A stretch of DNA of 64,000 nucleotides from Ylistrum balloti (taxonomy: Eukaryota). Position numbers and translations under genes: made by a program. Under the pieces are notes generated by a model. The model saw only the letters and a program-made list of their open reading frames with translations. It was not told where the DNA came from and ran no database searches. The stretch's first letter is position 1, and each line of letters opens with the position of its first letter. Location: assembly GCF_031769215.1 (NCBI RefSeq), contig NW_026782349.1, positions 239,634-303,633 on the forward strand, read 5' to 3'. Shown in pieces: positions 9,671 to 56,649 of this stretch.

Positions 9671-10791
9671 GGTCCAAAATTAGCCCTTCTGATATTTGTT
9701 ATGTATCAATCTTTAATAAAGACATGTTGTGTGTTTATGACAACCATATAGGCGAGAAAAAATGTGTAGCCAGATCTTTCATCAAACCCAGATCTTATTA
9801 CTAGCTGAACCTTCTATGTTCTGAGCTACATGTATAATATGGTTCAATACCTGTGGTAACACTACATTTCTCAGCCTTGATACATATATATTCCCGTCTC
9901 AGAAGTACCACAAGATTTTTTCACATTGTTTTATGTGAGTATTTTTAGTTGGACGCCTTATTGTATAAGGCAAGGAAAAGATTGTGGATAGGCTTGAAAT
10001 TGATCTGATTTTTTGTATACTTTAGCTCTACATGTATCTACTAAGCTATTTTTCAACTTGTAAATGAAAGCATGATTTGCTTTATATAAATGTGCAACCC
10101 TGGCCTCTGTTTGGCTAAGACATTTTGGACTTCCTCTCAAGAACCACTGGGTGGATCATGTTCAAACTTGGTACAGATGTTTTACACATGGTCCTTCACA
10201 AGTGTTGTTACATTTTTGCAACATTTTAAAATCCCTAAATTATTGACATATATTCCTCAGGTGGCCGTTAAGGCCCCTTGGGCCTCTTGTTCGTTTTATT
10301 TTTATCAGATTCAGCTTTTCATCGGTACAGTGGAACCAACTTAATGTCACGTCTGTTAATGTCACTTTCTGGTTAATATCACATTTTTTTATTGATTTCA
10401 TAATTTATGATAGCAGTTTAGATATTTCAAAGAATAAACAAACTAAAGTTAAGGAAAATCATTATTCTTATTGGAGAAACTGATCAAATTACAAATTACT
10501 TGTCTTCAAACAATTTCTGTAAGAGACAATTCAGTTTGGTACATCAGGAACTAGATAGCCTATACAGCTCCATTATGAGTGCTTTTTGTTTTAGCCATTA
10601 AGTCAATTATGACAAGATGCATCTGTTCAATGTGCACATTTTGATATATAGCAGACATATACCTGGGACATTCAATGGAAACCTGCAATACAGATGTATT
10701 GCTTAGCACAAGACTGGCATATTAACATTATGATAACAATACAGAAGGTTGATATTGAACGTCCTTTATTTATAAATAAGACACTTACCAG

Positions 10792-10821
10792 GGAAGGAGG
10801 TCTGCGCTGGATGGCGATCAG
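10792..10821 (+). CDS. CDC23: Tentative 30-nt CDC23 exon 2 (GRRSALDGDQ)
   Basis: A phase-0 micro-exon between acceptor ttaccAG and donor GTacat. It joins exon 1 to exon 3 in frame, but its similarity to human residues (..EEDAQD) is weak. Confidence 0.3.
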
Positions 10822-11243
10822 GTACATAATGAGGGCACTGGGCAGGTACATGCAGAGTAGACAGTACAATGCATGTATGACACTCACTCAGAACTCAAAT
10901 ATCATTCACATCATGTGCAGTGTATGTGCCTGTTGATGACATTGTGTAACAACTTCACCCTACTACGTGTGTTTCCAGAATACTTTGTAAATATACAATA
11001 AAGAACATACACATAACATTGATTAATTTCTAATTTGTCTAGTTGTTTTCTCAGTGGAATTTCCATAAAAAGTGTTGGTAAATAATAACTTTGACAGGTG
11101 TATTGCTGCTTTCAATATGTACTGCTTCCTGACAATGCAATGTTCAAGCTTAATTCCTTATCTTCAACCTTCCTTTGTTCTTGTTTTTGTACTCTCTACA
11201 ATAATTATATTCTGTTTGTGTATATACTTTGTATTTGTTACAG

Positions 11244-11424
11244 GACTTTTTAAAAGAATATGACCAGTACACACTGGCAGTGAGCTACTTTGACCTGAAG
11301 GAATATGACAGAGCTGCCCACTTTGTCCACGATTGTCATAGCAGTCAAGCCTACTTTCTCTACATGTACTCTCGCTACCTGGCTGAAGAGAAACGAAAAA
11401 ATGACAATGCATCTGACTCCATAG
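11244..11424 (+). CDS. CDC23: CDC23 exon 3 (DFLKEYDQYTLAVSYFDLKEYDRAAHFVHDCHSSQAYFLYMYSRYLAEEKRKNDNASDSI)
   Basis: Near-identical to human CDC23 AYTLAKAYFDVKEYDRAAHFLHGC..KAYFLYMYSRYLSGEKKKDDETVDSLG. Acceptor ttgttacAG; donor after ata g|GTtggt, phase 1. Confidence 0.85.
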
Positions 11425-11650
11425 GTTGGTGAAAAAATAAAATTTTTAAAATGTTACATGGGATGAAGAATATATTACAGATTCATCAATAGAAAAATAG
11501 CTTCTTAATGTGTAAATTTTGTACAATGTTCTATAATTGCTGATCATAATTGAGGGCTGTGGTGTTGAATACAAGCATTTTTAACTTTAGAATTTAGATG
11601 AAAACTTTTCTTATCAAGGAATGAGATTATTAAATGTCTTTTATTTAAAG

Positions 11651-11750
11651 GTCCTCCTAACAAACTAGAGAATGAACAGTTGAAGACCCTCAAAATGGAG
11701 CTGTGTAAAAAATATGCTAACAAGGAACTTGATGGTTTTTGTTTATATCT
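11651..11750 (+). CDS. CDC23: CDC23 exon 4 (GPPNKLENEQLKTLKMELCKKYANKELDGFCLYL)
   Basis: Matches human GPLEKGQVKNEALRELRVELSKKHQARELDGFGLYL. Acceptor tttaaAG; donor GTAAGT at 11751. Confidence 0.85.
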
Positions 11751-12061
11751 GTAAGTATTGGAAATTTGTTTTCATTTATTTTAAACATAGTAAATGTAAG
11801 GTTGACTTCCGAGACAACACATGTAAATTGTCTCGGTTTCATTTCCCATAAAACTTTGAAACATTTTCAGTTTTTCAATTTGTTTTGACAAAACAGATAT
11901 GAATCAACATACCACTTAACAGAAGATGTTCTATTAAGCTTTTGTGACTTCATCCAAATTAACATATTTTTAAATTGGTTCCTTTTCTATAATGCTATAT
12001 ACTAAAGTTATAGGTAAACAGCGAGTTTGGTGTGAATTTATGATGCTAAACATTTCAACAG

Positions 12062-12194
12062 GTATGGAGTGGTTCTAAAAAAACTGGAATTAATTAAAGA
12101 ATCAATGGAAATATTTGTGGAGGCAATAACACATGAGCCTTTACATTGGGGTGCGTGGCAGGAACTGGCTGGACTCATCACAGACAAGGAGACG
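12062..12194 (+). CDS. CDC23: CDC23 exon 5 (YGVVLKKLELIKESMEIFVEAITHEPLHWGAWQELAGLITDKET)
   Basis: Matches human YGVVLRKLDLVKEAIDVFVEATHVLPLHWGAWLELCNLITDKEM. Donor acg|GTAGGT at 12195. The 51-bp minisatellite begins here. Confidence 0.85.
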
Positions 12195-12895
12195 GTAGGT
12201 GTTGGAAGGAGGAGCTGGATTCATCACAGTGAAAGAGATGATAGGTGTTGGAGGAGGCAAGGGAGGGAATGGGCTGGACTCATCACAGATAAGGAGACAG
12301 AAGATGTTAGAGGAAGGGAGGGGGCTGGACTCATCACAGATAAGGAGACAGAAGATGTTAGAGGGAGGGAGGGGGCTGGACTCATCACAGATAAGGAGAC
12401 AGAAGATGTTAGAGGGAGAGAGGGGGCTGGACTCATCACAGATAAGGAGACAGAAGATGTTAGAGGGAGGGAGGGGGCTGGACTCATCACAGATAAGGAG
12501 ACAGAAGATGTTAGAGGGAGGAAGGGGCTGAACTCATCACAGATAAGGAGACAGAAGATGTTAGAGGGAGGGAGGGAGGGGGCTGGACTTATCATAGATA
12601 AAAGACAGAAGATGTTAAAGGGAGGGAGGGGGCAGGAGTCATCACAAATAGAAGATAGTAGGTGTTAGATGAGGCAGAGGAGGGAGGGGGCTGGAGTCAT
12701 TGATGATAAGGATAAGGTAGGTAGAGAGGGCAGGAGAGGATGGGACTGGACTCATTACAGATAAGGTGATGGTAAATGTCAAGGGAGGGTGGCTGGACTC
12801 CTAACAGATATGGAGATGGTAAATGTCAAGGGAGGGTGGCTGGACTCATCACAGATATGGAGATGGTAGATGTTGGGAAAGGTGGCTGATTGTAG
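12166..12895 (+). repeat. 51-bp minisatellite, about 14 units, seeded at the CDC23 exon 5 donor
   Basis: Period 51. The unit is GGCTGGACTCATCACAGATAAGGAGACAGAAGATGTTAGAGGGAGGGAGGG. The first unit is the exon end plus donor (GGCTGGACTCATCACAGACAAGGAGACGgtaggtgttgg). Later units carry gacAGAAGAtg, with the GT lost. Confidence 0.9.
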
Positions 12896-13063
12896 ATTGT
12901 AGGAATTTGTGTAGGTAATTTTTTTCTTTTTGTTTTGATGGTAAGACACACTTGATTTAAAGGAAAACAAAACCAGTTTTGATATTTATCACTAAGAGTG
13001 GTCAGCGTGAACTATCTTGTCCCCAGCGACACTTTGATTCTGTTAGTATTTTGTGTCCAACAG

Positions 13064-13241
13064 CTGTTATCCCTGTACCTGCCAAACCACTGGATAAAGA
13101 ATGTGTTTCTAGCCCACATCTACCTCCAACTCCAACTGAATGAGGAGGCAATGAAGATCTACCAGAGCTTGGCAGAAAATGGGTTTGCCAAAAGTTCCTA
13201 CATTGTATCACAGATAGCAGTGGCTTATCACAACATGAGAG
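13064..13241 (+). CDS. CDC23: CDC23 exon 6 (LLSLYLPNHWIKNVFLAHIYLQLQLNEEAMKIYQSLAENGFAKSSYIVSQIAVAYHNMR)
   Basis: Matches human FLSLPDTWMKEFFLAHIYTELQLIEEALQKYQNLIDVGFSKSSYIVSQIAVAYHNIRD. Acceptor ccaacAG; the first donor is g|GTGAGTAG at 13242. That donor is copied about 32 times in the downstream array, so the donor actually used is ambiguous. The first copy gives the correct frame. Confidence 0.8.
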
Positions 13242-14955
13242 GTGAGTAGTTCCAACATTGTATCACAGATAGCAGTGACTTACCACAACATGAGAGGTGA
13301 GTAGTTCCAACATTGTATCACAGATAGCAGTGACTTACCACAACATGAGAGGTGAGTAGTTCCAACAATGTATCACAGATAGCAGTGACTTACCACAACA
13401 TGAGAGGTGAGTAGTTCCAACAATGTATCACAGATAGCAGTGACTTACCACAACATGAGAGGTGAGTAGTTCCAACAATGTATCACAGATAGCAGTGACT
13501 TACCACAACATGAGAGGTGAGTAGTTCCTACATTGTATCACAGATAGCAGTGACTTACCACAACATGAGAGGTGAGTAGTTCCTACAATGTATCACAGAT
13601 AGCAGTGACTTACCACAACATGAGAGGTGAGTAGTTCCAACAATTTATCACAGATAGCAGTGACTTACCACTACATGAAAGGTGAATAGTTCCTACATTG
13701 TATAACAGATAGCAGTGACTTACCACAACATGAGAGGTGAGTAGTTCCAACAATGTATCACAGATAGCAGTGACTTACCACAACATGAGAGGTGAGTAGT
13801 TCCAACATTGTATCACAGATAGCAGTGACTTACCACAACATGAGAGGTGAGTAGTTCCTACAATGTATCACAGAAACAGTGACTTACCACAATATGAGAG
13901 GTGAGTAGTTCCAACATTGTATCACAGATAGCAGTGACTTACCACAACATGAGAGGTGAGTAGTTCCTACAATGTATCACAGATAGCAGTGACTTACCAC
14001 AACATGAGAGGTGAGTAGTTCCTACAATGTATCACAGATAGCAGTGACTTACCACAACATGAGAGGTGAGTAGTTCCAACAATTTATCACAGATAGCAGT
14101 GACTTACCACTACATGAAAGGTGAATAGTTCCTACATTGTATAACAGATAGCAGTGACTTACCACAACATGAGAGGTGAGTAGTTCCAACAATGTATCAC
14201 AGATAGCAGTGACTTACCACAACATGAGAGGTGAGTAGTTCCAACATTGTATCACAGATAGCAGTGACTTACCACAACATGAGAGGTGAGTAGTTCCAAC
14301 ATTGTATCACAGATAGCAGTGACTTACCACAACATGAAAGGTGAGTAGTTCCTACATTGTATCACAGATAGCAGTGACTTACCACAACATGAGAGGTGAG
14401 TAGTTCCAACATTGTATCACAGATAGCAGTGACTTACCACAACATGAGAGGTGAGTAGTTCCAACATTGTATCACAGATAGCAGTGACTTACCACAACAT
14501 GAGAGGTGAGTAGTTCCAACATTGTATCACAGATAGCAGTGACTTACCACAACAGGAGAGGTGAGTAGTTCCAACATTGTATCACAGATAGCAGTGACTT
14601 ACCACTACATGAGAGGTGAGTAGTTCCAACATTGTATCACAGATAGCAGTGACTTACCACAACAGGAGAGGTGAGTAGTTCCAACATTGTATCACAGATA
14701 GCAGTGACTTACCACTACATGAAAGGTGAATAGTTCCAACAATGTATCACAGATAGCAGTGACTTACCACAACATGAAAGGTGAGTAGTTCCTACATTGT
14801 ATCACAGATAGCAGTGACTTACCACTACATGAAAGGTGAATAGTTCCAACAATGTATCACAGATAGCAGTGACTTACCACAACATGAGAGGTGAGTAGTT
14901 CCTACATTGTATCACAGATAGCAGTGACTTACCACAACATGAGAGGTGAGTAGTT
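13193..14955 (+). repeat. 55-bp minisatellite, about 32 units, made of copies of the CDC23 exon 6 end plus 5' splice site
   Basis: Period 55. The unit is TTCCAACATTGTATCACAGATAGCAGTGACTTACCACAACATGAGAGgtgagtag. Every unit retains AGGTGAGTAG. Confidence 0.95.
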
Positions 14956-15120
14956 TTAAAACCCTAAACTGAATTTCATTAGTTTGATTTTGTGATTTAA
15001 AAACATTGAATGTTTTATATTTGTAGAAAAATCCCTACATTTTGAGTCATTAAGAAAATCTACTAAACTGTCATGGTTCACATGTATGGTCAGTGACAGT
15101 GGTTTATTTTGTTGCTGTAG

Positions 15121-15218
15121 ATGTAGATCAGGCAATGACTGTGTTCACAGAGCTTCAGGAAATGGACCCCTACAGACTGGAAAATATGGACATTTTCTCC
15201 AACCTGCTCTATATCAAG
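15121..15218 (+). CDS. CDC23: CDC23 exon 7 (DVDQAMTVFTELQEMDPYRLENMDIFSNLLYIK)
   Basis: Matches human IDKALSIFNELRKQDPYRIENMDTFSNLLYVR. Acceptor ttgctgtAG; donor GTTTAC at 15219. Confidence 0.8.
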
Positions 15219-16138
15219 GTTTACTCTATATTCTATAATAATTCTAATAAAGAAAGAACATCTGATACTTGTAATGTTCATATCTAATGGCAGAAATTTT
15301 ATATCAATTAATACTCCATAAGCTTAATCTTATATCTATCTATAAATTTAGTTGTTTGGATGGTGTTTGTTCAGAGCTCTCACACCCCATTTTGGGACTA
15401 GGGCCTGGGGCCCTTAGAATTGGGTAAAATAATGGTGTTTTCCTTAGAATTGGGAAAACTTGGGGTCTAAATTGGGAAAAAAGATACTATTTTGCATTGG
15501 GAATGGAGCCGAATATCAGCCCCAAATCTGGCAGATCGAGAGTGCTGTTGTTAAACTCTGATCAATATGTCACTCTCTTGAACATTTCTGTGTTAATTAT
15601 TTCATGGTTAGAAAATTTACTGTTCTGATTAGTTCTAGAAGGTTTCCATCTCTACAGTCATTCAGATCAGAGAGATGTACATACACCAGTTATGTTTCCT
15701 AGTGTATCTCTATCTAAGTCATAATAGCACATGTTTGCTTATCACTTAACTATCCTGTTAACAGTTTAAAAACACCTATTACATAATTAATATGTGTGTA
15801 TTATGACCTAGCAGAGCTGTGATTGCATGAAGGTTCCCATTGCTTTGTGGCATCATGTGGAAAGTGACATCATCAAAAAGAGATGGACCATAGATTTTGT
15901 ATTAGCCTTGTAAAATTATATTGACACAAATGTTGCGAAAATATCCTTATTATGTGATAAACAGTGTCTTGCATATATTTCCATTTCATATCTCAGATTG
16001 AATAAAAATTTAAAAGACCTCCTTCATTTCCATTTGAATCAAGACTCATATAAGATCCTTTCTATTTAATGTTAGTTGTTGGTGCATTCTGAATGACATT
16101 ATGATAACCTTGTGACAGATGGTCCCATGCTATTGTAG

Positions 16139-16220
16139 GAGATGAGAGCTGAACTTGCCAACCTAGCTCACAAGTGTTGTGATATTGATAAATACCGGGT
16201 AGAGACTTGCTGTGTTATAG
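16139..16220 (+). CDS. CDC23: CDC23 exon 8 (EMRAELANLAHKCCDIDKYRVETCCVIG)
   Basis: Matches human SMKSELSYLAHNLCEIDKYRVETCCVIG. Donor GTATGT at 16221. Confidence 0.85.
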
Positions 16221-16261
16221 GTATGTAATCTAAATACTTTACATGTGTATGTCAAAAGTTT

Positions 16262-19200
16262 ATGATGTTGTACACTGCATTGTGATATACTGTGGACAAG
16301 GCTATGATATTGGTACACTGTGTTCTGTGATATACTGTGGACAAGGCTATGATAATGTACCCTGTGTTCTGTGATATACTGTGGACAAGGCTATGATATT
16401 GTACTGTGTGTTCTATGATATACTGTGGACAAGGCTATGATAATGGTACACTGTGTGTACTGTGATATACTGTGGACAAGGCTATGATATTGTACACTGT
16501 GTTCTGTGATATACTGTGGACAAGGCTATGATATTGTACACTGTGTTCTGTGATATACTGTGGACAAGGCTATGATATTGTACACTGTGTTCTGTGATAT
16601 ACTGTGGACAAGGCTATGATATTGTACTGTGTGTACTGTGATATACTGTGGACAAGGCTATGATATTGTACCCTGTGTTCTGTGATATACTGTGGACAAG
16701 GCTATGATATTGTACTGTGTGTACTGTGATATACTGTGGACAAGGCTATGATATTGTACACTGTGTTCTGTGATATACTGTGGACAAGGCTATGATATTG
16801 TACACTGTGTTCTGTGATATACTGTGGACAAGGCTATGACAATGGTACACTGTTCTGTGATATACTGTGGACAAGGCTATGATATTGTACACTGTGTTCT
16901 GTGATATACTGTGGACAAGGCTATGATATTGTACTGTGTGTACTGTGATATACTGTGGACAAGGCTATGATATTGTACACTGTGTTCTGTGATATACTGT
17001 GGACAAGGCTATGATATTGTACACTGTGTTCTGTGATATACTGTGGACAAGGCTATGACAATGGTACACTGTTCTGTGATATACTGTGGACAAGGCTATG
17101 ATATTGTACACTGTGTTCTGTGATATACTGTGGACAAGGCTATGATATTGTACTGTGTGTACTGTGATATACTGTGGACAAGGCTATGATATTGTACACT
17201 GTGTTCTGTGATATACTGTGGACAAGGCTATGATATTGTACTGTGTGTACTGTGATATACTGTGGACAAGGCTATGATATTGTACTGTGTGTACTGTGAT
17301 ATACTATGGACAAGGCTATAATATTGTACTGTGTGTACTGTGATATACTGTGGACAAGGCTATGATATTGTACACTGTGTTCTGTGATATACTGTGGACA
17401 AGGCTATGATATTGTACTGTGTGTACTGTGATATACTGTGGACAAGGCTATAATATTGTACTGTGTGTACTGTGATATACTGTGGACAAGGCTATGATAT
17501 TGTACACTGTGTTCTGTGATATACTATGGACAAGGCTATGATATTGTACCCTGTGTGTACTGTGATATACTGTGGACAAGGCTATGATATTGTACTGTGT
17601 GTACTGTGATATACTGTGGACAAGGCTATGATATTGTACACTGTGTTCTGTGATATACTGTGGACAAGGCTATGATATTGTACTGTGTGTACTGTGATAT
17701 ACTGTGGACAAGGCTATGATATTGTACTGTGTGTACTGTGATATACTGTGGACAAGGCTATGATATTGTACTGTGTGTACTGTGATATACTGTGGACAAG
17801 GCTATGATATTGTACACTGTGTTCTGTGATATACTGTGGACAAGGCTATGATATTGTACTGTGTGTACTGTGATATACTGTGGACAAGGCTATGATAATG
17901 TACACTGTGTTCTGTGATATACTGTGGACAAGGCTATGATATTGTACACTGTGTGTTATACTGTGTTATATTGTGGACAAGGCTATGATATTGTACACTG
18001 TGTGTTATACTGTGTTATACTGTGGACAAGGCTATGATATTGTACACTGTGTTCTGTGATATACTGTGGACAAGGCTATGATATTGTACTGTGTGTACTG
18101 TGATATACTGTGGACAAGGCTATGATATTGTACTGTGTGTACTGTGATATACTGTGGACAAGGCTATGATATTGTACTGTGTGTACTGTGATATACTGTG
18201 GACAAGGCTATGATATTGTACACTGTGTTCTGTGATATACTGTGGACAAGGCTATGATATTGTACTGTGTGTACTGTGATATACTGTGGACAAGGCTATG
18301 ATAATGTACACTGTGTTCTGTGATATACTGTGGACAAGGCTATGATATTGTACACTGTGTGTTATACTGTGTTATATTGTGGACAAGGCTATGATATTGT
18401 ACACTGTGTGTTATACTGTGTTATACTGTGGACAAGGCTATGATATTGTACACTGTTCTATGATAAACTGTGGACAAGGCTATGATATTGTAATGTGTGT
18501 ACTGTGATATACTGTGGACAAGGCTATGATATTGTACTGTGTGTACTGTGATATACTGTGGACAAGGCTATGATATTGTACTGTATGTACTGTGATATAC
18601 TGTGGACAAGGTTATGATATTGTACACTGTGTTCTGTGATATACTGTGGACAAGGCTATGATATTGTACTGTGTGTACTGTGATTTACTGTGGACAAGGC
18701 TATGATATTGTACTGTGTGTACTGTGATATACTGTGGATAAGGCTATGATATTGTACTGTGTGTACTGTGATATACTGTGGACAAGGCTATGATATTGTA
18801 CTGTATGTACTGTGATATACTGTAGACAAGGCTATGATATTGTACTGTATGTACTGTGATATACTGTGGACAAGGCTATGATATTGTACACTGTGTTCTG
18901 TGATATACTGTGGACAAGACTATGATATTATACACTGTGTTCTGTGATATACTGTGGACAAGGCTATGGTATTGTACTGTGTGTACTGTGATATACTGTG
19001 GACAAGGCTATGATATTGTACTGTGTGTACTGTGATATACTGTGGACAAGGCTATGGTATTGTACTGTGTGTTCTATGATATACTGTGGACAAGGCTATG
19101 ACAATGGTACACTGTGTGTTCTGTGATATACTGTGGACAAGGCTATGATATTGTACACTGTGTTCTATGATATACTGTGGACAAGGCTATGATATTGTAC

Positions 19201-22200
19201 TGTGTGTACTGTGATATACCGTGGACAAGGCTATGATATTGTACTGTGTGTACTGTGATGTACTGTGGACAAGGCTATGATATTGTACTGTGTGTACTGT
19301 GATGTACTGTGGACAAGGCTATGATATTGTACTGTGTGTACTGTGATATACTGTGGACAAGGCTATGATATTGTACTGTGTGTACTGTGATATACTGTGG
19401 ACAAGGCTATGATATTGTACACTGTGTTCTATGATATACTGTGGACAAGGCTATGATATTGTACTGTGTGTACTGTGATATACTGTGGACAAGGCTATGA
19501 TATTGTACTGTGTGTACTGTGATGTACTGTGGACAAGGCTATGATATTGTACTGTGTGTACTGTGATGTACTGTGGACAAGGCTATGATATTGTACTGTG
19601 TGTACTGTGATGTACTGTGGACAAGACTATGATATTGTACACTGTGTTCTGTGATATACCGTGGACAAGGCTATGACAATGGTACACTGTGTTCTGTGAT
19701 ATACTGTGGACAAGGCTATGATATTGTACACTGTGTTCTATGATATACTGTGGACAAGGCTATGATATTGTACTGTGTGTACTGTGATATACTGTGGACA
19801 AGGCTATAATATTGTACTGTGTGTACTGTGATATACTGTGGACAAGGCTATGATATTGTACACTGTGTTCTGTGATATACTGTGGACAAGGCTACCCTGT
19901 GTGTACTGTGTTGATATACTGTGGACAAGGCTATGATATTGTACTGTGTGTACTGTGATATACTGTGGACAAGGCTATGATATTGTACACTGTGTGTCTG
20001 TGATATACTGTGGACAAGGCTATGATATTGTACTGTGTGTACTGTGATATACTGTGGACAAGGCTATGATATTGTACTGTGTGTACTGTGATATACTGTG
20101 TGTGTACTGTGTGACTGTGATATACTGTGGACAAGGCTATGATATTGTACACTGTGTGTCTGTGATATACTGTGGACAAGGCTATGATATTGTACTGTGT
20201 GTACTGTGATATACTGTGGACAAGGCTATGATATTGTACACTGTGTTCTGTGATATACTGTGGACAAGGCTATGATATTGTACTGTGTGTACTGTGTGTG
20301 TTATACTGTGTTATATTGTGGACAAGGCTATGATATTGTACATGTGTGTGTGTGTACTGTGATATACTGTGGACAAGGCTATGATATTGTACTGTGTTCT
20401 GTGATATACTGTGGACAAGGCTATGATAGTGTACTGTGTGTACTGTGATATACTGTGGACAAGTCTATGATATTGTACTGTGTGTACTGTGATATATTGA
20501 TATTGTACTGTGTGTACTGTGATATACTGTGGACAAGGCTATGATATTGTACTGTGTGTACTGTGATATACTGTGGACAAGCTATGATATTGTACTGTGT
20601 GATATACTGTGGACAAGGCTATGATATGTGTACTGTGATATACTGTGGACAAGGCTATGATATTGTACTGTGTTACTGTGATATACTGTGGACAAGGCTA
20701 TGATATTGTACTGTGTGTACTGTGATATGATACTGTGGACTGTGATATAAGGCTATGATATTGTACTGTGATATACTGTGGACAAGGCTATGATATTACT
20801 GTGTGTTGATATTGTGGACAAGGTGTGTACTGTGTATACTGTGGACAAGGCTATGATATTGTACACTGTGTTCTATGATATACTGTGGACAAGGCTATGA
20901 TATTGTACTGTGTGTACTGTGATATACTGTGGACAAGGCTATGATATTGTACTGTGTGTACTGTGATATACTGTGGACAAGGCTATGATATTGTACTGTG
21001 TGTACTGTGATATACTGTGGACAAGGCTATGATATTGTACTGTGTGTGTGTACTGTGACATACTGTGGACAAGGCTATGATATTCTACTGTATGTACTGT
21101 GATCTACTGTAGACACGGCTATGCTATTGTACTGTTTGTACTGTGATATACTGTGGACAAGGCTATGATATTGTACTGTGTGTACTGTGATATACTGTGG
21201 ACAAGGCTATGATATTGTACTGTGTGTACTGTGATCTACTGTGGACAAGGCTATGATATTGTACTGTGTGTACTGTGATATACTGTGGACAAGGCTATGA
21301 TATTGTACTGTGTGTACTGTGATATACTGTGGACAAGGCTATGATATTGTACTGTGTGTACTGTGATATACTGTGGACAAGGCTATGATATTGTACTGTG
21401 TGTACTGTGATATACTGTGGACAAGGCTATGATATTGTACACTGTGTTCTGTGATATACTGTGGACAAGGCTATGATATTGTACAGTGTGTACTGTGATA
21501 TACTGTGGACAAGGCTATGATATTGTACTGTGTGTACTGTGATTTACTGTGGACAAGGCTATGATATTGTACTGTGTGTACTGTGATATACTGTGGACAA
21601 GGCTATGATATTGTACACTGTGTTCTGTGATATACTGTGGACAAGGCTATATGATATGTGATATACTGTGTGATATTGTACTGTGTGATATACTGTGGAC
21701 AAGGCTATGATACTGTGTGTACTGTGTGTACTGTGTGATATACTGTGGACAAGGCTACTGTGATATTGTACTGTGTACTGTGTGTACTGTGATATACTGT
21801 GGACAAGGCTATGATATTGTACTGTGTGTACTGTGATATACTGTGGACAAGGCTATGATATTGTACTGTGTGTACTGTGCTATGATTGTACTGTGTGTAC
21901 TGTGGACAAGGCTATGACTGTGTGTATTGTACTGTGTGTACACTGTGTGTACTGATATACTGTGGACAAGGCTATGATATTGTACACTGTGTTCTGTGAT
22001 ATACTGTGGACAAGGCTATGATATTGTACACTGTGTTGGACAAGGCTATGATATACTGTGGACAAGGCTATGATATTGTACTGTGTGTACTGTGATATAC
22101 TGTGGACAAGGCTATGATATTGTACTGTGTGTTCTGTGATATACTGTGGACAAGGCTATGATATTGTACACTGTGTTCTGTGATATACTGTGGACAAGGC

Positions 22201-23556
22201 TATGATATTGTACACTGTGTGTTCTGTGATATACTGTGGACAAGGCTATGATATTGTACACTGTGTGTACTGTGATATACCGTGGACAAGGCTATGATAT
22301 TGTACTGTGTGTTCTGTGATATACTGTGGACAAGGCTATGATATTGTACACTGTGTGTTCTGTGACATACTGTGGACAAGGCTATGGTATTGTACACTGT
22401 GTGTACTGTGATATACCGTGGACAAGACTATGATATTGTACTGTGTGTACTGTGATATACTGTGGACAAGGCTATGATATTGTACTGTGTGTTCTGTGAT
22501 ATACCGTGGACAAGGCTATGATATTGTACTGTGTGTTCTGTGATATACCGTGGACAAGGTTATGATATTGTACTGTGTGTACTGTGATATACTGTGGACA
22601 AGGCTATGATAATGGTACACTGTGTGTTCTGTGATATACTGTGGACAAGGCTATGATATTGTACACTGTGTTCTGTGATATACTGTGGACAAGGCTATGA
22701 TATTGTACTGTGTGTTCTGTGATATACTGTGGACAAGGCTATGATATTGTACTGTGTGTACTGTGATATACTGTGGACAAGGCTATGATATTGTACTGTG
22801 TGTACTGTGATATACTGTGGACAAGGCTATGATATTGTACACTGTGTGTTCTGTGATATACTGTGGACAAGGTTATGATATTGTACACTGTGTTCTGTGA
22901 TATACTGTGGACAAGGCTATGATATTGTACACTGTGTGTTCTGTGATATACTGTGGACAAGGCTATGATATTGTACACTGTGTTCTGTGATATACCGTGG
23001 ACAAGGCTATGATATTGTACACTGTGTTCTGTGATATACTGTGGACAAGGCTATGATATTGTACACTGTGTTCTGTGATATACTGTGGACAAGGCTATGA
23101 TATTGTACACTGTGTGTTCTGTGATATACTGTGGACAAGGCTATGATATTGTACACTGTGTTCTGTGATATACTGTGGACTATGATATTGTACACTGTGT
23201 GTTCTGTGATATACTGTGGACAAGACTATGATATTGTACACTGTGTTCTGTGATATACTGTGGACAAGGCTATGATATTGTACTGTGTGTACTGTGATAT
23301 ACTGTGGACAAGGTTATGATATTGTACTGTGTGTTCTATGATATACTGTGGACAAGGCTATGATAATGGTACACTGTGTGTTCTGTGATATACTGTGGAC
23401 AAGGCTATGATATTGTACTGTGTGTTGTGTGATATACTGTGGACAAGGCTATGATATTGTACTGTGTGTTCTGTGATATACTGTGGACAAGGCTATGGTA
23501 TTGTACACTGTTGTGTGATATACATTTGACAAGGTTATGATATTGTACACTGTATT
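16262..23556 (+). repeat. About 7.3-kb minisatellite (unit about 44-45 bp, about 165 copies) filling CDC23 intron 8
   Basis: Unit TGTGGACAAGGCTATGATATTGTACACTGTGTTCTGTGATATAC. It has degenerate patches at 20100-20850 and 21640-22060. It ends in the acceptor of exon 9. Confidence 0.95.
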
Positions 23557-23561
23557 TGTAG

Positions 23562-23726
23562 GTAACTACTATTCTATACGACAACAGCATGAGAAGGCGG
23601 TACTGTACTTCCAGAGGGCACTAAAACTTAACCCCCACTACTTATCTGCCTGGACTCTGATGGGCCACGAATTCATGGAACTGAAGAACACGTCTGCTGC
23701 TCTTCAGGCTTACAGACAGGCAATAG
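23562..23726 (+). CDS. CDC23: CDC23 exon 9 ([54 protein letters not shown])
   Basis: Matches human [54 protein letters not shown]. The acceptor tatttgtAG is the last, degenerate unit of the 7.3-kb array. Donor GTAAAA at 23727. Confidence 0.85.
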
Positions 23727-23989
23727 GTAAAAAAGCTGACAGTTTAATTCACTTTAAAATAATATTATTTCTGTATAATTATACACAGTTATTGTTTAAC
23801 AGAGAATGTTATGAAACCAGAGGCATTCACAGAGAAGAACTACAAGCTACCGTCAGGTGAAGAGTATGGATTTTAATCTCACACAGTATGAGTCAATTTC
23901 TGTACAGATGAACTTCAGCATTATGTGATAGTTAAAGGCTTTATGCTCACATAGTCTAAAGGTGGCATTGTTTTTATATTTGGCTGGTA

Positions 23990-24420
23990 TGTTCCTAGGA
24001 TAATGACTGACAAAGTTTGCAAAAAGAAATGACCTTGACCTATATTCAAAGTTACAGGGGTCAGATTTGTAAAAACTTCAATGACTTTTTCTTATAAACT
24101 AAAAGGCCTTGATGCATGTTATGTGATTGGTTTGTACCTATGATGAAGCTTGACAAAGTCTACGAATATAAATTACCTAAACTTATATTCAAGGTCACAA
24201 GAGTCAGATTTTTTAAAACCTTTTAATGATTTTTTTTTCTGATGAACTAAAAGGCCTACAGGCATGATATTTGGCTAGTATTTTACTAGGATGAAAACTA
24301 TCTAAGTTTGCGAAAAAGAATGACCTTGACTTACATTCAAGGTCACAGGGATGAAATTTGTTAAAACATTTAAATGACATCTTCTCATGAACTAAAAGGC
24401 CTAGAGGCATGATATTTGGC
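23990..24420. repeat. About 120-bp tandem unit x3 (..AATGACCTTGACCTATATTCAAGGTCACAGGGGTCAGATTTGT..)
   Basis: Direct reading. The GACCTTGACC/CAAGGTCA-containing unit is related to the array at 42470-42900. Confidence 0.8.
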
Positions 24421-24650
24421 TGGTATATAAATATATGCTAGGTGAATGCTGTAGGCCCAATGGACCTCTTGTTATCCCTCAGAATCAGACGAGAGGTCCG
24501 ATAGTGGAAATGGTGTAAAATTTTCCAAAAAATTAAGTTTTGGGTGAATAAGGTTATTTAGATATCATTTATTGGAATGTTATAGTTTAGACTGATTCCA
24601 CTTTTAGTACAGCTAATTAACCATGTTGAAATGTAACTCTTTTAAATCAG

Positions 24651-24759
24651 AGGTTGAACGGCGAGACTACCGAGCATGGTACGGACTTGGACAAACCTAC
24701 GAAATCCTGAAGATGCATTACTACTGTCTCTACTACTATCGACAAGCCCAAAAACTCAG
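24651..24759 (+). CDS. CDC23: CDC23 exon 10 ([36 protein letters not shown])
   Basis: Matches human [36 protein letters not shown]. Donor GTGAGT at 24760. Confidence 0.85.
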
Positions 24760-26158
24760 GTGAGTTATTGTATTATTCTAGCTGTGTAATGATATGTCCA
24801 CTTATCAATTTACTGCGATAGCTTTTGTCTCGATAGCAATAAGTGAATAAGATATTTTCACGGCAATAACTATTGCAATAGTTTGTTCATCTATTGATTG
24901 TTAATGATAGTTCCTTTTAACTAAATAAAAATGCTACTTGAAAGCAAGATTTTTCACCAAGTTATTGCCTATTTATAAAAGCATCTTTGGGACCTTGATG
25001 GGGGTAACATTAGGTAAAAGAATGGCACAATGACCTGCTTAGAATAGAAAAAGAAAAATGAGAGTTTATATATTAAATAAGTATTGTATTGTTATTGTTT
25101 CCAATATGGTGTAATTAAATCAACAAATTATAGTAAGGGAGATGGTGACTTTAATTCTGGGTCCATTTTTCATCCTTGAAATGGCCCATTTCGATAAACA
25201 ACATAGTGGAAGGTAGTGGCATTTCAAAAATTGTTCCTAATAAACAGTCACGACGGCAGTAGGACAACATTTTGTTACATGAAAATTAATGACAAAGTGT
25301 CGCATAACTGTTCACAATTAATCTCCAGTTTGTGAAGTACGGACACTTTTGTTTGGTAAATAGCTATATATATCATACCTTTACTATTTAGGCCTACTAA
25401 CATTAAATATACATTTCTTTGATATGGCAAAGATTTATAAAGTCAGACTTCAACCAAATAATTGTATGACTGCGGAATTTTTAATCACCTTTTGAAACGT
25501 AAGTCAAGTTTGAAATAAAGATGCAATTATACTAATCTATCATAAAACTAAGACTATCATTGTGCAACATACCTGATTGTCTACATATTGCCAAAATATG
25601 ATATTTTCAAAAATGTTCAGCTCTAACATTTGGTAAATTGAGTATTTATTTGTTGATTAGAAAACACATGCTAAGGTTAAATCACCATCATGATAGTATT
25701 GCAATACTCACCTAACTATCATAATAATATCACAGTAGTTATTTTACTAATGCAATACTAACGTGATAGCTTTTTTGATCTCAATGGTCATCTCAAATTG
25801 TTGTCCAACCCAGAAACTCATATGATGATTCACTATTTTTCACAGTCACAGACAGTCAGGTGCATCAGTACTTACATCACCCCTAAAACCTCAGGCAAAA
25901 TGCTATAACTAATAGGTCTTTTGAATATGCAATAGAACTTCAGGAAAGTTTGTATTTTCATTGAACTTTAAACCTCAAGCATGTCAACTTAGATATTCTC
26001 CATTTGCCCAGTTTTTTTTATAAAAGTAAGGAAGGTGAATTATAAAGACAAAAGCAGACCAGTTATTCTGATTTCGTATGTTAATAGATAAGACTTAATT
26101 TGGGATTATTTGTATACATATTTTGTGTGTATTTAGATTTCTCAGCATTCATTTTCAG

Positions 26159-26296
26159 ACCAAATGACTCACGCATGGTAATGGCACTGGGAGAGACTTA
26201 TGAGAAATTAGATAGACTACAGGAGGCCAAGAAATGTTTCTGGAAAGCTAACTGTATAGGTGATATGGAGGGAACAGCTCTCATCAAACTAGCCAG
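26159..26296 (+). CDS. CDC23: CDC23 exon 11 (RPNDSRMVMALGETYEKLDRLQEAKKCFWKANCIGDMEGTALIKLA)
   Basis: Matches human RPNDSRMLVALGECYEKLNQLVEAKKCYWRAYAVGDVEKMALVKLA. Donor ag|GTAAGT at 26297. The 45-bp array of exon-end plus donor copies starts here. Confidence 0.85.
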
Positions 26297-27580
26297 GTAA
26301 GTAATGGGTAGAGAGGGAACAGATCTCATCAAACTAGCCAGGTAAGTAATGGGTAGAGAGAGACAGCTCTCATCAAACTATCCCAGGTAAGTAATGGGTA
26401 GAGAGGGAACAGATCTCATCAAACTAGCCAGGTAAGTAATGGGTAGAGAGGGAACAGATCTCATCAAACTAGCTAGGTAAGTAATGGGTAGAGAGAGACA
26501 GCTCTCATCAAACTATCCCAGGTAAGTAATGGGTAGAGAGGGAACAGATCTCATCAAACTAGCCAGGTAAGTAATGGGTAGAGAGGGAACAGCTCTCATC
26601 AAACTAGCCAGGTAAATAATGGGTAGAGAGGGAACAGATCTCATCAAACTAGCCAGGTAAGTAATGGGCACAGAGGGAATGGCTCTCATCAAACTAGCCA
26701 GGGAAGTAATGGGTAGAGAGGGAACAGCTCTCATCAAACTAGCCAGGTAAGTAATGGGTAGAGAGGGAACAGCTCTCATCAAACTAGCCAGGTAAATAAT
26801 GGGTAGAGAGGGAACAGATCTCATCAAACTAGCCAGGTAAGTAATGAGTAGATAGGGAACAGCTCTCATCAAACTAGCCAGGTAAGTAATGGGTAGAGAG
26901 GGAACAGCTCTCATCAAACTAGCCAGGTAAGTAATGGGTAGAGAGGGAACAGCTCTCATCAAACTAGCCAGGTAAATAATGGGTAGAGAGGGAACAGATC
27001 TCATCAAACTAGCCAGGTAAGTAATGAGTAGATAGGGAACAGCTCTCATCAAACTAGCCAGGTAAGTAATGGGCACAGAGGGAATGGCTCTCATCAAACT
27101 AGCCAGGGAAGTAATGGGTAGAGAGGGAACAGCTCTCATCAAACTAGCCAGGGAAGTAATGGGTAGAGAGGGAGCAGCTCTCATCAAACTATCCCAGGTA
27201 AGTAATGGGTAGAGAGGGAACAGCTCTCATCAAACTAGCCAGGTAAGTAATGGGTAGTGACTACTGCCAACTGTATTGGTGATATGGAGGGAACAGCTTT
27301 CATCAAACTAGCCAGGGAAGTAATGGGTAGAGAGGGAACTGCTCTCATCAAACTAGCCAGGTAAGTAATGGGTAGAGAGGGAACAGCTCTCATCAAACTA
27401 TCCCAGGTAAGTAATGGGTAGAGACGGAACAGCTCTCATCAAACTAGCCAGGTAAGTAATGGGTAGAGAGGGAACAGATCTCATCAAACTAGCCAGGTAA
27501 GTAATGGGTAGTGACTATGGTAAACTGTATAGGTGATATTGAGGGAATGACTATCATCAAACTAGCCAGGTAAGTATTTG
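26266..27580 (+). repeat. 45-bp minisatellite, about 29 units, made of copies of the CDC23 exon 11 end plus 5' splice site
   Basis: Period 45. The unit is GGGAACAGCTCTCATCAAACTAGCCAGgtaagtaatgggtagaga. Nearly all units keep CAGGTAAGTA. Confidence 0.95.
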
Positions 27581-27812
27581 TAATTAACTACATAGGTCAG
27601 CATGGTCACTACCTTCATTAGATAATCTATAGAAACTGGTAAGGACAATTTGAAGTGCTGGTGACTATAAAAACTTTTTTTGGCAAGGAAATGGCTTCGA
27701 ATGTTAGCCCTACTTCTCAAATGACTAAAATGTTATTGAATGTTAGAAAAGAAAATGTCAGGAACTGAGATAGATATGAGATATGGCTAACTACAAACAC
27801 TTCTTGTCACAG

Positions 27813-27891
27813 ACTTCACGAGAAACTACACGAGGAGGACCAGGCAGCCTCGGCCTACACAGACTATATCAATGAGGCCAGTAGACAAGGG
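27813..27891 (+). CDS. CDC23: CDC23 exon 12 (RLHEKLHEEDQAASAYTDYINEASRQG)
   Basis: Matches human KLHEQLTESEQAAQCYIKYIQDIYSCG. Acceptor tcttgtcacAG; donor GTAAGT at 27892. Confidence 0.8.
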
Positions 27892-28199
27892 GTAAGTTGT
27901 GTTGTGTATCATCACAAATTTTAACAAAAACATTTTAATGGTTAGGATTAATTACAACCTGAAGTACATCAAAAGAATCAAATACATATGCTGTTATTGT
28001 CCTTGCTTTAACAAAAAATGTTAACCTTTATCAAAGTTAGTTTTTCTCTGACATTTTTTCATATTTTCACTTTTGTCGACTATTATAAGGAAGTTTGTTA
28101 TTTTATGTAAACAAGCAGCCAATGATATGTACAGTACATTCTCTAATTGTAATCGTTATATGCCATCTGACCTTCCATCAACTTTTCCTTTAAAACACT

Positions 28200-28470
28200 T
28201 CTTAGTGCATAAGTAGATTTCAGCCAAATTTGGTCTGAAACATAATTGGGATAGGCAATCATTTCTTAAATCCAGAAAATTGTGACAGAGGGGCAGGGCC
28301 CCAAATGGGGAATTTAGCTACAATTCTGCTTTAAGAGCCCTGCTCTTCCTGAACACCACACATATTTCAATCAAATTTGGCCTGAAGCATTGTTAGAGGT
28401 GGGCAATTATTTCATAAATAGATAAAGTCGATTTAATCCTTGGGATGGCGATGGGTTCCTAAACGAGAGA
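28200..28470. repeat. Two units of the dispersed CCAAATTTGGTCTGAAGCAT.. family
   Basis: Shares the CCAAATTTGG(T/C)CTGAA(A/G)CAT..GGG..CCC motifs with 31280-31870. Confidence 0.5.
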
Positions 28471-28703
28471 TTTTGGCACAAATTTCTCTTTCCATTGTAA
28501 GTACTCCATAATGCCTGAGTGGATTTCAAACAATGATTTCTGCAATGAATTATTCGCTTGTTGGATGACAAAGCCTATGGACCTCTTGTTTATCTGTTCT
28601 GGTCATGGTTTAAGTTTGTTATAGATCAGAACGTAAATATTGAAGAAGTATTTGCCATGTTTAAGGAAATAAACTTTACTAGAAACCTTACTTTGTTTGC
28701 TAG

Positions 28704-28820
28704 AACTATAATCCAGAAGACCAGAGTCAAGCCTACAAGTATCTGGCTAACTATCACCTTAAACTTGGACAGCTGGACGAAGCTTTCACTGCAGCCCAGA
28801 AGTGTTCAGAATTTCCAGAG
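28704..28820 (+). CDS. CDC23: CDC23 exon 13 (NYNPEDQSQAYKYLANYHLKLGQLDEAFTAAQKCSEFPE)
   Basis: Matches human ..STAFRYLAQYYFKCKLWDEASTCAQKCCAFND. Acceptor tttgctAG; donor GTCAGT at 28821. Confidence 0.75.
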
Positions 28821-29160
28821 GTCAGTAGCCATGTCTCTTTTTCTCTCTTTTTATTGTAGGCTATATGTTATTAGACACATTTTGTTTTGATAAAATATAG
28901 TAATATTGGTTAAAATCAAACTGGAACTAGATAGCCAGAACAACCATTATATACCACATCATGTACAATTACACTACATGTCATTTGTAATTTACACTAT
29001 AAACAAAGATTATCCAGTACATGATGATTATTTTGGCAGCCTTTGCTTTGATATCCATGGGAGTAAATGCTGTTTGTAAGGTATTTTGTGATACTTTTTA
29101 TCAAAGTTGAAAAGATGAAAATAGAATTATTGAAATTAGAATAAATGGTTGTTTTTACAG

Positions 29161-38993: not shown

Positions 38994-39128
38994 CTGTAAA
39001 GTTATAAAGATTTTATTGTTTGGAATGCATCCGTGTACTTGAAACTACTATCTAAAAAATGTATGTCACCATGATCTCATTGGATTTAGAATTTTTATCA
39101 AACTCAAATATGAACTTATCTCACTAAC

Positions 39129-56602: not shown

Positions 56603-56649
56603 CTGAAAAATAGACATACAAAAAGTGAGTGAAAAACAGCATGTAAAAA

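What the first reader, a model, noticed from the sequence alone, without database searches (positions are those of the whole stretch)
16262..23561. A 7.3-kb, about 165-copy minisatellite fills almost all of CDC23 intron 8 and supplies the 3' splice site of exon 9
The array begins about 40 bp after the exon 8 donor. Its final, degenerate unit (..GTACACTGTATTTGTAG|GT) forms the acceptor for exon 9, with only a weak polypyrimidine tract. There is thus almost no unique intronic sequence between the two exons. Some units (TGCTGTGTTATA..) resemble the exon 8 end. Such a long, pure array is a candidate for length polymorphism, unusual chromatin or replication-fork stalling inside an essential cell-cycle gene.
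Basis: seen in the sequence. Interest (0 to 1): 0.6.

Follow-up and report, generated by a model that had tools for sequence, protein, structure and literature searches.

The report
Giant minisatellite filling CDC23 intron 8
A 7.3-kb run of about 160 copies of a 44-bp unit really does make up 99% of one intron of the cell-cycle gene CDC23 and its last, mutated copy carries the intron's 3' splice signals, but it looks like an inert, lineage-specific repeat in a genome that is full of such arrays.

Summary
Observation confirmed. A 44-bp minisatellite (TRF 16281-23548, 162.8 copies; 160 anchored units) fills 99% of a 7341-bp GT-AG intron (16221-23561). A validated 14-exon, 583-aa CDC23 model shows this is intron 8. 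The last degenerate unit supplies the acceptor.

The array is splice-silent. Of the intron's 166 AGs, 162 are AAG. Only the real acceptor combines UAG|G, a branch-like TTGAC 32 nt upstream and the most T-rich tract. There is one strong donor-like site besides the real donor.

There is no hairpin or G4 potential, no ORF and no Rfam hit. No copy of the unit occurs elsewhere in the window or in metagenome contigs. Orthologous introns in two relatives are 244 bp and about 1.1 kb and lack the unit. So this is a young, locally amplified, probably neutral intronic VNTR.

Context matters more. At least five other arrays in the window (three in CDC23) are tandem copies of an exon tail plus 5' splice site. 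These are 'mirages', described so far only in amphioxus. A relative has duplicated the same exon 8 junction. Whether the 44-bp array is a decayed mirage is unproven (nominal p 0.004-0.03). Its acceptor tract is typical for this gene. Length polymorphism and assembly accuracy could not be tested.

The parts
16139..16220 (+). CDC23 exon 8 (82 nt; ...ETCCVI + first base of the Gly codon)
   Evidence: Spliced translation; PDB CDC23 match; gene model
16221..16261 (+). Unique 5' part of intron 8: donor GTATGT plus about 35 nt. The first ~18 nt are orthologous to the intron start in relative L001.
   Evidence: Alignment A1: GTATGTAATCTAAATAC against L001 GTAATGTATAATAAATAC. Not significantly unit-like (p 0.11).
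16262..23526 (+). Body of the 44-bp minisatellite: about 160 units, main types A (x40) and B (x25), 71 distinct variants, with re-duplicated multi-unit blocks
   Evidence: TRF; unit segmentation; identity profile; longest exact internal repeat 441 nt; 146 core matches against 0 in shuffles
23527..23561 (+). Terminal degenerate unit acting as the 3' splice region: branch-like TTGAC (A at 23529), a T-richer tract, and the acceptor TAG at 23559-23561
   Evidence: Alignment to type-B consensus. It is the only YAG|G in the intron with a yUnAy motif 15-45 nt upstream.
23562..23726 (+). CDC23 exon 9 (165 nt; (G)[13 protein letters not shown]...QAYRQAI)
   Evidence: The exon 9 start shows no similarity to the unit (p 0.3-0.6).
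3578..29343 (+). Host gene: CDC23/APC8, 14 coding exons, 583 aa. Exons: 3578-3696, 8322-8391, 11244-11424, 11651-11750, 12062-12194, 13064-13241, 15121-15218, 16139-16220, 23562-23726, 24651-24759, 26159-26296, 27813-27891, 28704-28820, 29161-29343.
   Evidence: Model built. Validated independently against PDB 5g04_C (E 8.5e-218) and Pfam ANAPC8 (E 2e-55).

Best explanation
The feature is a lineage-specific, locally amplified intronic minisatellite (VNTR-type array). It has inflated an ancestrally short CDC23 intron 8 about 7- to 30-fold.

It is transcribed as part of the pre-mRNA and removed with the intron by ordinary GT-AG splicing. The donor is the unique exon 8 junction (TAG|GTATGT). The branch site and acceptor lie in the last, mutated repeat unit.

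The array is tolerated inside an essential gene because its roughly 160 interior units carry almost no usable splice signals. They have no yUnAy branch motif, their AGs are almost all AAG, and they have no strong donors. The spliceosome therefore has only one competent 3' site to pair with the donor.

The array grows, shrinks and homogenises by unequal exchange or replication slippage of single units and multi-unit blocks. It most likely has no function of its own.

Shown: the anatomy, the distribution of splice signals, the absence of the unit elsewhere, the short orthologous introns and the block duplications. Inferred: neutrality, the turnover mechanism and actual splice-site use (no RNA data).
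For: Array and junction anatomy.

Gene identity and intron number.

Splice-signal scan: the intron holds 166 AGs, of which 162 are AAG. Only 5 YAGs lie in the intron, and only 23561 is YAG|G with a yUnAy motif (TTGAC, A 32 nt upstream). The whole 7.3 kb holds only 9 yUnAy motifs. There are 958 GTs, but only one scores 8/9 against the donor consensus; the real donor scores 7/9.

No coding or RNA signal: no ORF of 90 aa or more in the array; no Rfam hit.

No structure potential: z-scores -1.36, +0.42, +0.55; no GGG.

Locus-specific: no copies elsewhere in the window, in 7 related loci or in metagenome contigs.

Lineage-specific expansion: intron 8 is 244 bp in L007 and about 1.1 kb in L001, both with ordinary T-rich acceptor tracts.

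Turnover: 441-nt and 350-nt exact internal duplications at offsets of 9.2 and 5.0 units, and repeated unit-type strings such as BAAABAIJK x2.

The acceptor is not an outlier among the gene's 13 introns.
Against: There is no transcript evidence that the predicted junction is the one used, although the reading frame and the end-to-end match to human CDC23 require it.

No population or read data are available, so neutrality, polymorphism and exact copy number are untested.

The near-total lack of splice signals in 160 units could reflect selection. It could equally reflect the founder unit's sequence followed by homogenisation; the two cannot be separated here.

A GU-rich RNA of 7 kb could bind RNA-binding proteins. 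That was not testable.
Confidence: 0.72

Rival explanations
1. Decayed 5' 'mirage'. The array began as a tandem duplication of the exon 8 tail plus donor, like the arrays in introns 5, 6 and 11. It then drifted away from the junction sequence and expanded until it reached the acceptor. This concerns origin and is compatible with the array being inert today.
For: Five other arrays in the window are proven exon-tail plus donor repeats. Alignment scores are 49-81, and none of 3000 control windows reached them.

Relative L001 carries a 2 x 66-bp, 100% identical duplication of this same exon 8 junction.

Exon 8's last 56 nt match the array better than controls do (p 0.004-0.03 in 4 scoring schemes). 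It scores best of 11 exon ends (29 against 14-25), and shuffling gives p 0.008.

A lenient alignment runs from the first unit across the donor: TGCTGTGTTATAG|G-TATG-TAAT against TACTGTGGACAAG|GCTATGATAT.
Against: The junction alone is not significant (p 0.08-0.15).

The best exon 8 alignment is gappy and hits one aberrant unit (21641-21691).

Sixteen tests were run without correction.

The first ~18 nt of the intron are orthologous to L001's intron start rather than to the unit.

The proven mirages are anchored at the donor and leave 165-236 nt of unique 3' sequence. This array has the opposite layout, with 41 nt unique at the 5' end and 0 at the 3' end.

Units carry no donor-like site, unlike the intron 6 and intron 11 arrays.
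Confidence: 0.3
2. Acceptor-anchored origin. The founder unit was the last ~44 nt of the ancestral intron (branch site to AG). It was amplified upstream, and only splice-dead copies were tolerated and homogenised. On this reading the terminal 'degenerate' unit is the ancestral original, not a mutated copy.
For: The array is flush with the acceptor, while unique sequence survives only at the 5' end.

The terminal unit differs from the consensus exactly at the branch-like motif (TTGAC against TGGAC) and at the AG (TTTGTAG against TTCTGTGA).

Relative L001 has an acceptor-side junction array at exon 11 (78 bp, at least 4.3 copies).

The 41-bp array at 56629-57259 also ends 28 nt from a putative acceptor.
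Against: The exon 9 start shows no similarity to the unit (p 0.3-0.6), so this is not a junction-spanning mirage.

The 3' ends of the relatives' introns do not resemble the unit (p 0.12 and 0.90).

Edge units of any array are usually the most diverged, so the pattern is not diagnostic.
Confidence: 0.3
3. Assembly artefact. The array is chimeric, or its length is grossly wrong (collapsed or over-expanded).
For: No reads were available. Arrays of this size are error-prone in assemblies. PMC3087553 reports a mis-assembled mirage in an amphioxus draft genome.
Against: The array is internally heterogeneous: 71 distinct unit variants in a non-periodic order. The longest exact internal repeat is 441 nt.

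Both flanks are in-frame CDC23 exons with correct phase.

Many other arrays in the window show the same style.
Confidence: 0.07
4. Functional RNA or DNA element. The GU-rich repeat RNA, or the repeated DNA, regulates CDC23 splicing, expression or chromatin. Human intronic VNTRs in ABCA7 and TERT do influence splicing.
For: The sense strand is 63% G+T with many UGUGU motifs. Human precedents show that intronic VNTR length can affect splicing (PMC5954066; PMC3948165).
Against: The array is absent from both relatives. There is no structure signal and no Rfam hit. The same genome carries many unrelated arrays in other introns, which points to a mutational bias rather than a function.
Confidence: 0.06
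5. Imported satellite. The array belongs to a dispersed satellite or transposon-borne repeat family that inserted into the intron.
For: Nothing specific. It was considered because many invertebrate satellites derive from mobile elements.
Against: All 146 core matches lie inside the array on one strand. There are none in related loci or metagenome contigs. There are no terminal repeats or element ends, and only 41 nt of flank is not array.
Confidence: 0.04

Closest known systems
Large human intronic VNTRs, such as the ABCA7 intronic VNTR and the TERT intron 6 38-bp VNTR
   Same: These are kilobase-scale arrays of units a few tens of bp long, lying wholly inside an intron of a protein-coding gene and removed by splicing. 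They are expected to vary in length.
   Different: The human arrays occupy only part of their introns; the TERT repeats lie more than 1 kb from the junctions (PMC3948165). Their length has measured effects on splicing (PMC5954066). Here the array is 99% of the intron, its last unit is the 3' splice region, and no effect has been measured.
'Mirages': minisatellite-like tandem duplications of exon/intron boundaries in amphioxus (Adh3, globins, TnC, PGBD5; PMC3087553, PMC3902484)
   Same: The same genomic habit is present here. Five other arrays in this window repeat an exon tail plus donor. They have similar unit sizes (45-59 bp; published range 10-160 bp), leave the reading frame intact, and homogenise internally. 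The target array sits in the same gene, and the same junction is duplicated in a relative.
   Different: The target array's units do not demonstrably contain exon 8 or exon 9 sequence or a splice site, so the defining feature is not met. The published cases held in the searched library are all cephalochordate, and the organism here is unidentified.
Human F7 intron 7 37-bp VNTR (PMC1557585)
   Same: It is a minisatellite at the very start of an intron in which only the most upstream donor is used. That is the likely rule for the intron 6 and intron 11 arrays seen here.
   Different: F7 has only several copies, and its first unit spans the boundary. The target array has about 160 copies, none with a donor, and it abuts the acceptor rather than the donor.
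Intron gain by tandem duplication of an AGGT-containing exon segment (Rogers model, discussed in PMC3087553)
   Same: Both ends of intron 8 read TAG|GT, and the intron body is a tandem repeat. This superficially fits the model.
   Different: An intron at exactly this position (before G-NYYS) exists in several other organisms with unrelated intron sequence. So the intron predates the array, and this reading is rejected.

Membership tests
Minisatellite / intronic VNTR-type array | Head-to-tail copies of a 10-100 bp unit, many copies, far beyond chance | tested here: met
   Period 44, 162.8 copies, TRF score 9080; 146 core matches against 0 in 100 shuffles
Minisatellite / intronic VNTR-type array | Lies entirely within an intron of a validated gene | tested here: met
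   Intron 8 of a CDC23 model validated against PDB and Pfam
Minisatellite / intronic VNTR-type array | Internal variant structure showing turnover by unit or block duplication | tested here: met
   71 variants, repeated unit-type strings, 441-nt and 350-nt exact block duplications
Minisatellite / intronic VNTR-type array | Copy number variable between alleles (the 'VN' in VNTR) | not testable with these tools
   Only one haplotype is available, with no reads or population data
Mirage (exon/intron boundary minisatellite) | The repeat unit contains the exon tail or head together with the adjacent splice site | tested here: inconclusive
   Exon 8 tail against array: nominal p 0.004-0.03, with a gappy alignment. 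Junction alone: p 0.08-0.15. Exon 9 start: p 0.3-0.6. Positive controls (introns 5, 6, 11) score 49-81, and no control window reaches them.
Mirage (exon/intron boundary minisatellite) | The first or last copy is the authentic junction, in register with the array | tested here: not met
   At the 5' end, 41 nt of unique sequence orthologous to L001's intron start separates the donor from the array. At the 3' end the last unit reaches the AG, but the exon is not part of the unit.
Mirage (exon/intron boundary minisatellite) | Repeated copies carry splice-site-like signals | tested here: not met
   One donor-like site scoring 8/9 in 7.3 kb, and no YAG|G with a branch motif except the real acceptor. 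By contrast, intron 6 has about 32 donor-like sites and intron 11 about 24.
Dispersed satellite or transposon-borne repeat | The same unit occurs at other loci, or element termini flank the array | tested here: not met
   No copies outside the array in the window, in related loci or in metagenome contigs. The whole genome was not available.
Intron created by tandem duplication (Rogers model) | The intron position is lineage-specific (absent in relatives) | tested here: not met
   ORF fragments from other organisms enter exon 9 from unrelated intron sequence at the same G|NYYS position (P0048, P0049, P0062, P0047, P0076). L001 and L007 have the intron without the array.

The most novel reading that the evidence does not exclude
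The 44-bp array is the end-state of a directed mutational process. In this lineage, tandem amplification is seeded preferentially at splice junctions, possibly coupled to transcription or splicing. The resulting arrays inflate short introns many-fold, drift away from the junction sequence, and can eventually take over or replace a splice site. Intron 8 would be the most advanced case in a series visible within one gene: a fresh 2-copy duplication of the exon 8 junction in a relative, then 29-32 intact-donor copies in introns 6 and 11, then decayed donors in intron 5, then intron 8. If the organism is not a cephalochordate, this would also extend 'mirages' beyond amphioxus.
Probability: 0.25. 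Interest if true: 0.7.

Novelty: new member of a known kind. Interest (0 to 1): 0.38.

Why it matters
On its own the array is an extreme but ordinary intronic minisatellite. It is useful mainly as a marker for length polymorphism and as a warning for assembly and annotation.

Two points give it some wider value. First, it is a natural test of 3' splice-site definition. A 7.3-kb intron has essentially one sequence repeated 160 times. The only competent branch and acceptor combination differs from its neighbours by a handful of substitutions, so a minigene that swaps those bases between units would test directly what makes a unit splice-competent.

Second, it sits beside arrays carrying about 24-32 intact tandem donor copies in an essential gene. 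Each of these is a larger natural version of the human F7 model for 5' splice-site choice. Together they point to a junction-anchored repeat-generating process whose mechanism is unknown.

Tried and rejected
1. **Intron creation by tandem duplication** (both ends read TAG|GT). Rejected: the intron position is shared with other organisms that have unrelated intron sequence.

2. **Unit derived from the exon 9 start.** No similarity (p 0.3-0.6).

3. **Unit derived from ancestral intron 8 sequence still visible in relatives.** No significant similarity to L007 or L001 introns (p 0.08-0.9).

4. **In-phase, ungapped comparison of the 5' unique segment with the unit.** By eye, about 33% identity, which is random. 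Only gapped, lenient alignments extend to the donor.

5. **Dispersed family.** None found in the window, the related loci or the metagenome contigs.

6. **Structure-forming DNA or RNA.** No signal.

7. **Known RNA families.** None in the window.

8. **Organism identification.** This failed. The protein database returned only unnamed metagenome fragments. The window's own ORFs are not in the collection. The Cañestro 2002 mirage paper is not held.

9. **Pfam scan of raw translated frames** to find exon 2. Exon 2 was found by splice and phase logic instead.

10. **The human CDC23 probe** used to locate exons was written from memory. It served only to find candidates. The final model was validated against the real PDB chain and Pfam.
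Full report
**1. The observation**

Tandem Repeats Finder reports a single array at 16281-23548 with period 44, 162.8 copies, 84% matches and a score of 9080. The 22-nt core GGACAAGGCTATGATATTGTAC occurs 146 times at up to 3 mismatches. Every match is on the + strand inside 16294-23548, and none appeared in 100 dinucleotide-preserving shuffles. Segmenting on the anchor GGACAAGG gives 160 units, 113 of them exactly 44 bp. There are 71 distinct variants and two main types, A (x40) and B (x25). The array is real and far beyond chance.

**2. The host gene**

Exon 8 (16139-16220, donor TAG|GTATGT) spliced to exon 9 (23562-23726, acceptor TTTGTAG|GT) reads [41 protein letters not shown].... This matches human CDC23 residues 312-392 with E about 1e-42.

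I located the other exons with a tblastn probe written from memory and found exon 2 by splice-phase logic. Assembling 14 GT-AG exons gives a 583-aa protein. Independently of the probe, this protein aligns end to end with the solved human CDC23 chain 5g04_C (residues 27-593, E 8.5e-218). It also matches Pfam ANAPC8 (E 2e-55).

The array therefore lies in intron 8 of 13 (16221-23561, 7341 bp). Unique sequence is 41 nt at the 5' end and none at the 3' end, so the array is 99% of the intron.

**3. How the intron can still be spliced**

I scanned every AG and GT in the intron.

- **Acceptors.** The scan window (intron plus the first 30 nt of exon 9) holds 168 AGs, 166 of them in the intron. Of these, 162 are AAG, mostly the GACAAG|G of the unit, with the disfavoured A at -3. 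Only five are YAG. Only the true acceptor (23561) is YAG|G, has a branch-like yUnAy motif 15-45 nt upstream (TTGAC, A at 23529, 32 nt from the AG) and has the most T-rich upstream tract.
- **Branch motifs.** The whole 7.3 kb contains only nine yUnAy motifs.
- **What makes the last unit different.** It differs from the type-B consensus chiefly at two places: ACTGTGGAC becomes ACATTTGAC, and CTGTGTTCTGTGA becomes CTGTATTTGTAGG. These are exactly the changes that create the branch-like motif and the UAG.
- **Donors.** Of 958 GT dinucleotides, only one interior site scores 8/9 against the donor consensus. The authentic donor scores 7/9.

The array is thus nearly free of competing splice signals, which explains how it can be tolerated.

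However, this lies within the 50-75% range of the gene's 13 acceptors. Only the longest uninterrupted pyrimidine run (3 nt against 4-7) is the lowest.

**4. What the array is not**

- It contains no ORF of 90 aa or more on either strand, and the window has no Rfam match.
- Three-unit segments fold no better than shuffles as DNA or RNA on either strand (z -1.36, +0.42, +0.55).
- The longest G run is 2, so G-quadruplexes are excluded. The sense strand is 63% G+T.
- The unit is not found elsewhere in the window, in seven related loci or in the metagenome contig collection. So there is no evidence that it belongs to a dispersed satellite or a mobile element.

The sequence therefore gives no support to the suggestions of unusual structure or replication-fork stalling.

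**5. Comparative evidence**

Several database ORF fragments enter exon 9 from unrelated intron sequence at exactly the G|NYYS position, while others have exons 8 and 9 fused. The intron is therefore older than the array. This rejects the idea that a tandem duplication of an AGGT segment created the intron.

Two contigs from relatives carry the orthologous region.

| Locus | Exon 9 identity | Intron 8 length | Acceptor tract |
|---|---|---|---|
| L001 | 96% | about 1.1 kb | aaaaaaaaattattttcag |
| L007 | 93% | 244 bp | ordinary |

Neither contains the 44-bp unit. The first ~18 nt of the window's intron still align with L001's intron start. So the 5' unique stretch is ancestral and the expansion is specific to this lineage.

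**6. Turnover**

Unit-type strings recur (BAAABAIJK x2, BBHBA x2). Exact internal duplications of 441 nt and 350 nt lie at offsets of 9.2 and 5.0 units. These are the usual signatures of unequal exchange or slippage of multi-unit blocks.

Mean identity of units to the nearer main type is 0.94, with a messier zone at about 19.9-22.2 kb. This heterogeneity, together with in-frame exons on both sides, argues against a gross assembly artefact. Copy number cannot be verified without reads.

**7. Context: a genome that builds arrays on splice junctions**

The window carries more than ten minisatellites. Three further CDC23 introns are dominated by arrays whose units are the tail of the upstream exon plus the donor.

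| Intron | Unit | Copies | Unit content |
|---|---|---|---|
| 5 | 51/47 bp | about 8 + 2.7 | ...GCTGGACTCATCACAGAYAAGGAGAC + decayed donor |
| 6 | 55 bp | 32 | 49 nt of exon + GTGAGT; about 32 strong donor copies |
| 11 | 45 bp | 29 | 29 nt of exon + GTAAGTAATGGGTAGA; about 24 strong donor copies |

These were read directly. They score 49-81 against their exon ends, and none of 3000 control windows reaches those scores. Reading through the first donor meets a stop codon at once in introns 6 and 11, so the first copy must be the one used.

On the minus strand, an ALMS-motif gene (Pfam E 1e-5) has two more such arrays:

- 59 bp x6, where the exon ends ...CCCAAACA|GTAAGC
- 49 bp x50, where the exon ends ...CCTTATAGTG|GTAAGTG

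Relative L001 has a 2 x 66-bp, 100% identical duplication of the exon 8 tail plus donor. It also has a 78-bp array (at least 4.3 copies) of the acceptor plus the exon 11 start.

Such boundary-spanning minisatellites have a published name, 'mirages'. The library I could search reports them only from amphioxus genes (PMC3087553; PMC3902484). The human F7 intron 7 VNTR is a small analogue in which only the most upstream donor is used (PMC1557585). I could not identify the organism of the window.

**8. Is the 44-bp array itself a mirage?**

The evidence is suggestive but insufficient.

- **For.** Exon 8's last 56 nt match the array better than random windows in all four scoring schemes (p 0.004-0.03). 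Exon 8 is the best of 11 exon ends (29 against 14-25), and shuffling gives p 0.008.
- **Against.** The alignment is gappy and hits an aberrant unit. The junction alone gives p 0.08-0.15, and the exon 9 start is null. Sixteen tests were made without correction.
- **Layout.** The proven mirages are donor-anchored and leave 165-236 nt of unique 3' sequence. This array leaves 41 nt at the 5' end and none at the 3' end. That fits an acceptor-anchored origin at least as well.
- **Relatives.** Their introns do not resemble the unit.

I therefore leave the origin open, at roughly 0.3 for a 5' mirage, 0.3 for a 3'-end seed, and the remainder for some other intronic origin. I do not file the array as a mirage.

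**9. Verdict**

The best explanation is an inert, lineage-specific intronic VNTR. Its units are splice-silent, and its terminal unit carries the only competent branch and acceptor combination. It is a new member of a known kind.

Its main value is as part of a striking set of junction-anchored arrays in this window. These deserve a follow-up of their own.

Noticed in passing
window 13193-14955 (CDC23 intron 6): A 55-bp x32 array whose unit is the last 49 nt of exon 6 plus GTGAGT. This gives about 32 near-perfect tandem copies of the 5' splice site (26 GAG|GTGAGT). Read-through of the first donor hits a stop at once. It is a textbook 'mirage' and a much larger natural version of the human F7 donor-choice model.
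   Followed up: partly
window 26268-27576 (CDC23 intron 11): A 45-bp x29 array whose unit is the last 29 nt of exon 11 plus GTAAGTAATGGGTAGA. It has about 24 strong donor copies (19 perfect CAG|GTAAGT). The unit is a multiple of 3, but read-through gives AGG TAA, a stop.
   Followed up: partly
window 12200-12880 (CDC23 intron 5): 51-bp and 47-bp arrays derived from the exon 5 tail (GCTGGACTCATCACAGAYAAGGAGAC). In the homogenised core units the donor has decayed to AGAAGATGTT. Edge units keep GGTAGGT or GGTAAAT.
   Followed up: partly
window 36380-38823 and 39822-40177 (minus strand): Two more exon-tail plus donor arrays in a neighbouring minus-strand gene. One is 49 bp x50 after the exon end ...CCTTATAGTG|GTAAGTG; that exon matches the Pfam ALMS motif (E 1e-5). 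The other is 59 bp x6 after ...CCCAAACA|GTAAGC; each of its units also ends in an acceptor-like TTTACAG|G.
   Followed up: partly
L001 3293-3424 and 7674-8011: A relative's CDC23 carries a 2 x 66-bp, 100% identical duplication of the exon 8 tail plus donor. This is the same junction that borders the target intron. It also carries a 78-bp array (at least 4.3 copies) of the acceptor plus the exon 11 start. Junction duplication therefore seems ongoing in this lineage.
   Followed up: partly
window 56629-57259: A 41-bp x15 array that is pyrimidine-rich on the minus strand. It ends 28 nt upstream of a putative minus-strand acceptor (ctatttttcag|GGATGATGG...). This is another array abutting a 3' splice site. 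The exon is unverified.
   Followed up: no
window ~40085-63894, minus strand: Very large low-complexity Ser/Arg/Lys-rich open exons (681, 494, 209 and 598 aa) with no Pfam match. They probably belong to the same ALMS-motif gene as the small exon at about 38816-38995.
   Followed up: partly
window ~6300-6600 (CDC23 intron 1): A remnant of a Tc1/mariner-type transposase ORF (...KSPDLSPIEHVWDVLGRRVRERQNQPSNLQELAQALIAEWNNI...).
   Followed up: no
window 23976-24426 and 54727-55160: 148-bp x3 and 157-bp x2.7 tandem copies of what look like interspersed elements. The 148-bp element has a GACCTTGA...TCAAGGTCA inverted repeat and lies in CDC23 intron 9.
   Followed up: no
window 29685-30597, 35794-36085, 47056-48662, 57665-58285: Further minisatellites (56, 38, 66 and about 60/115 bp) with no demonstrable link to a splice junction. 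The 56-bp array starts about 340 bp after the CDC23 stop codon.
   Followed up: no
L001 ~3470-3690 and ~4150-4240 (intron 8 of the relative): SINE-like or tRNA-related segments (...cctgagcaggattcaaactcgcaacgttagtggtgatcgg...). They account for part of the extra length of that intron compared with L007.
   Followed up: no
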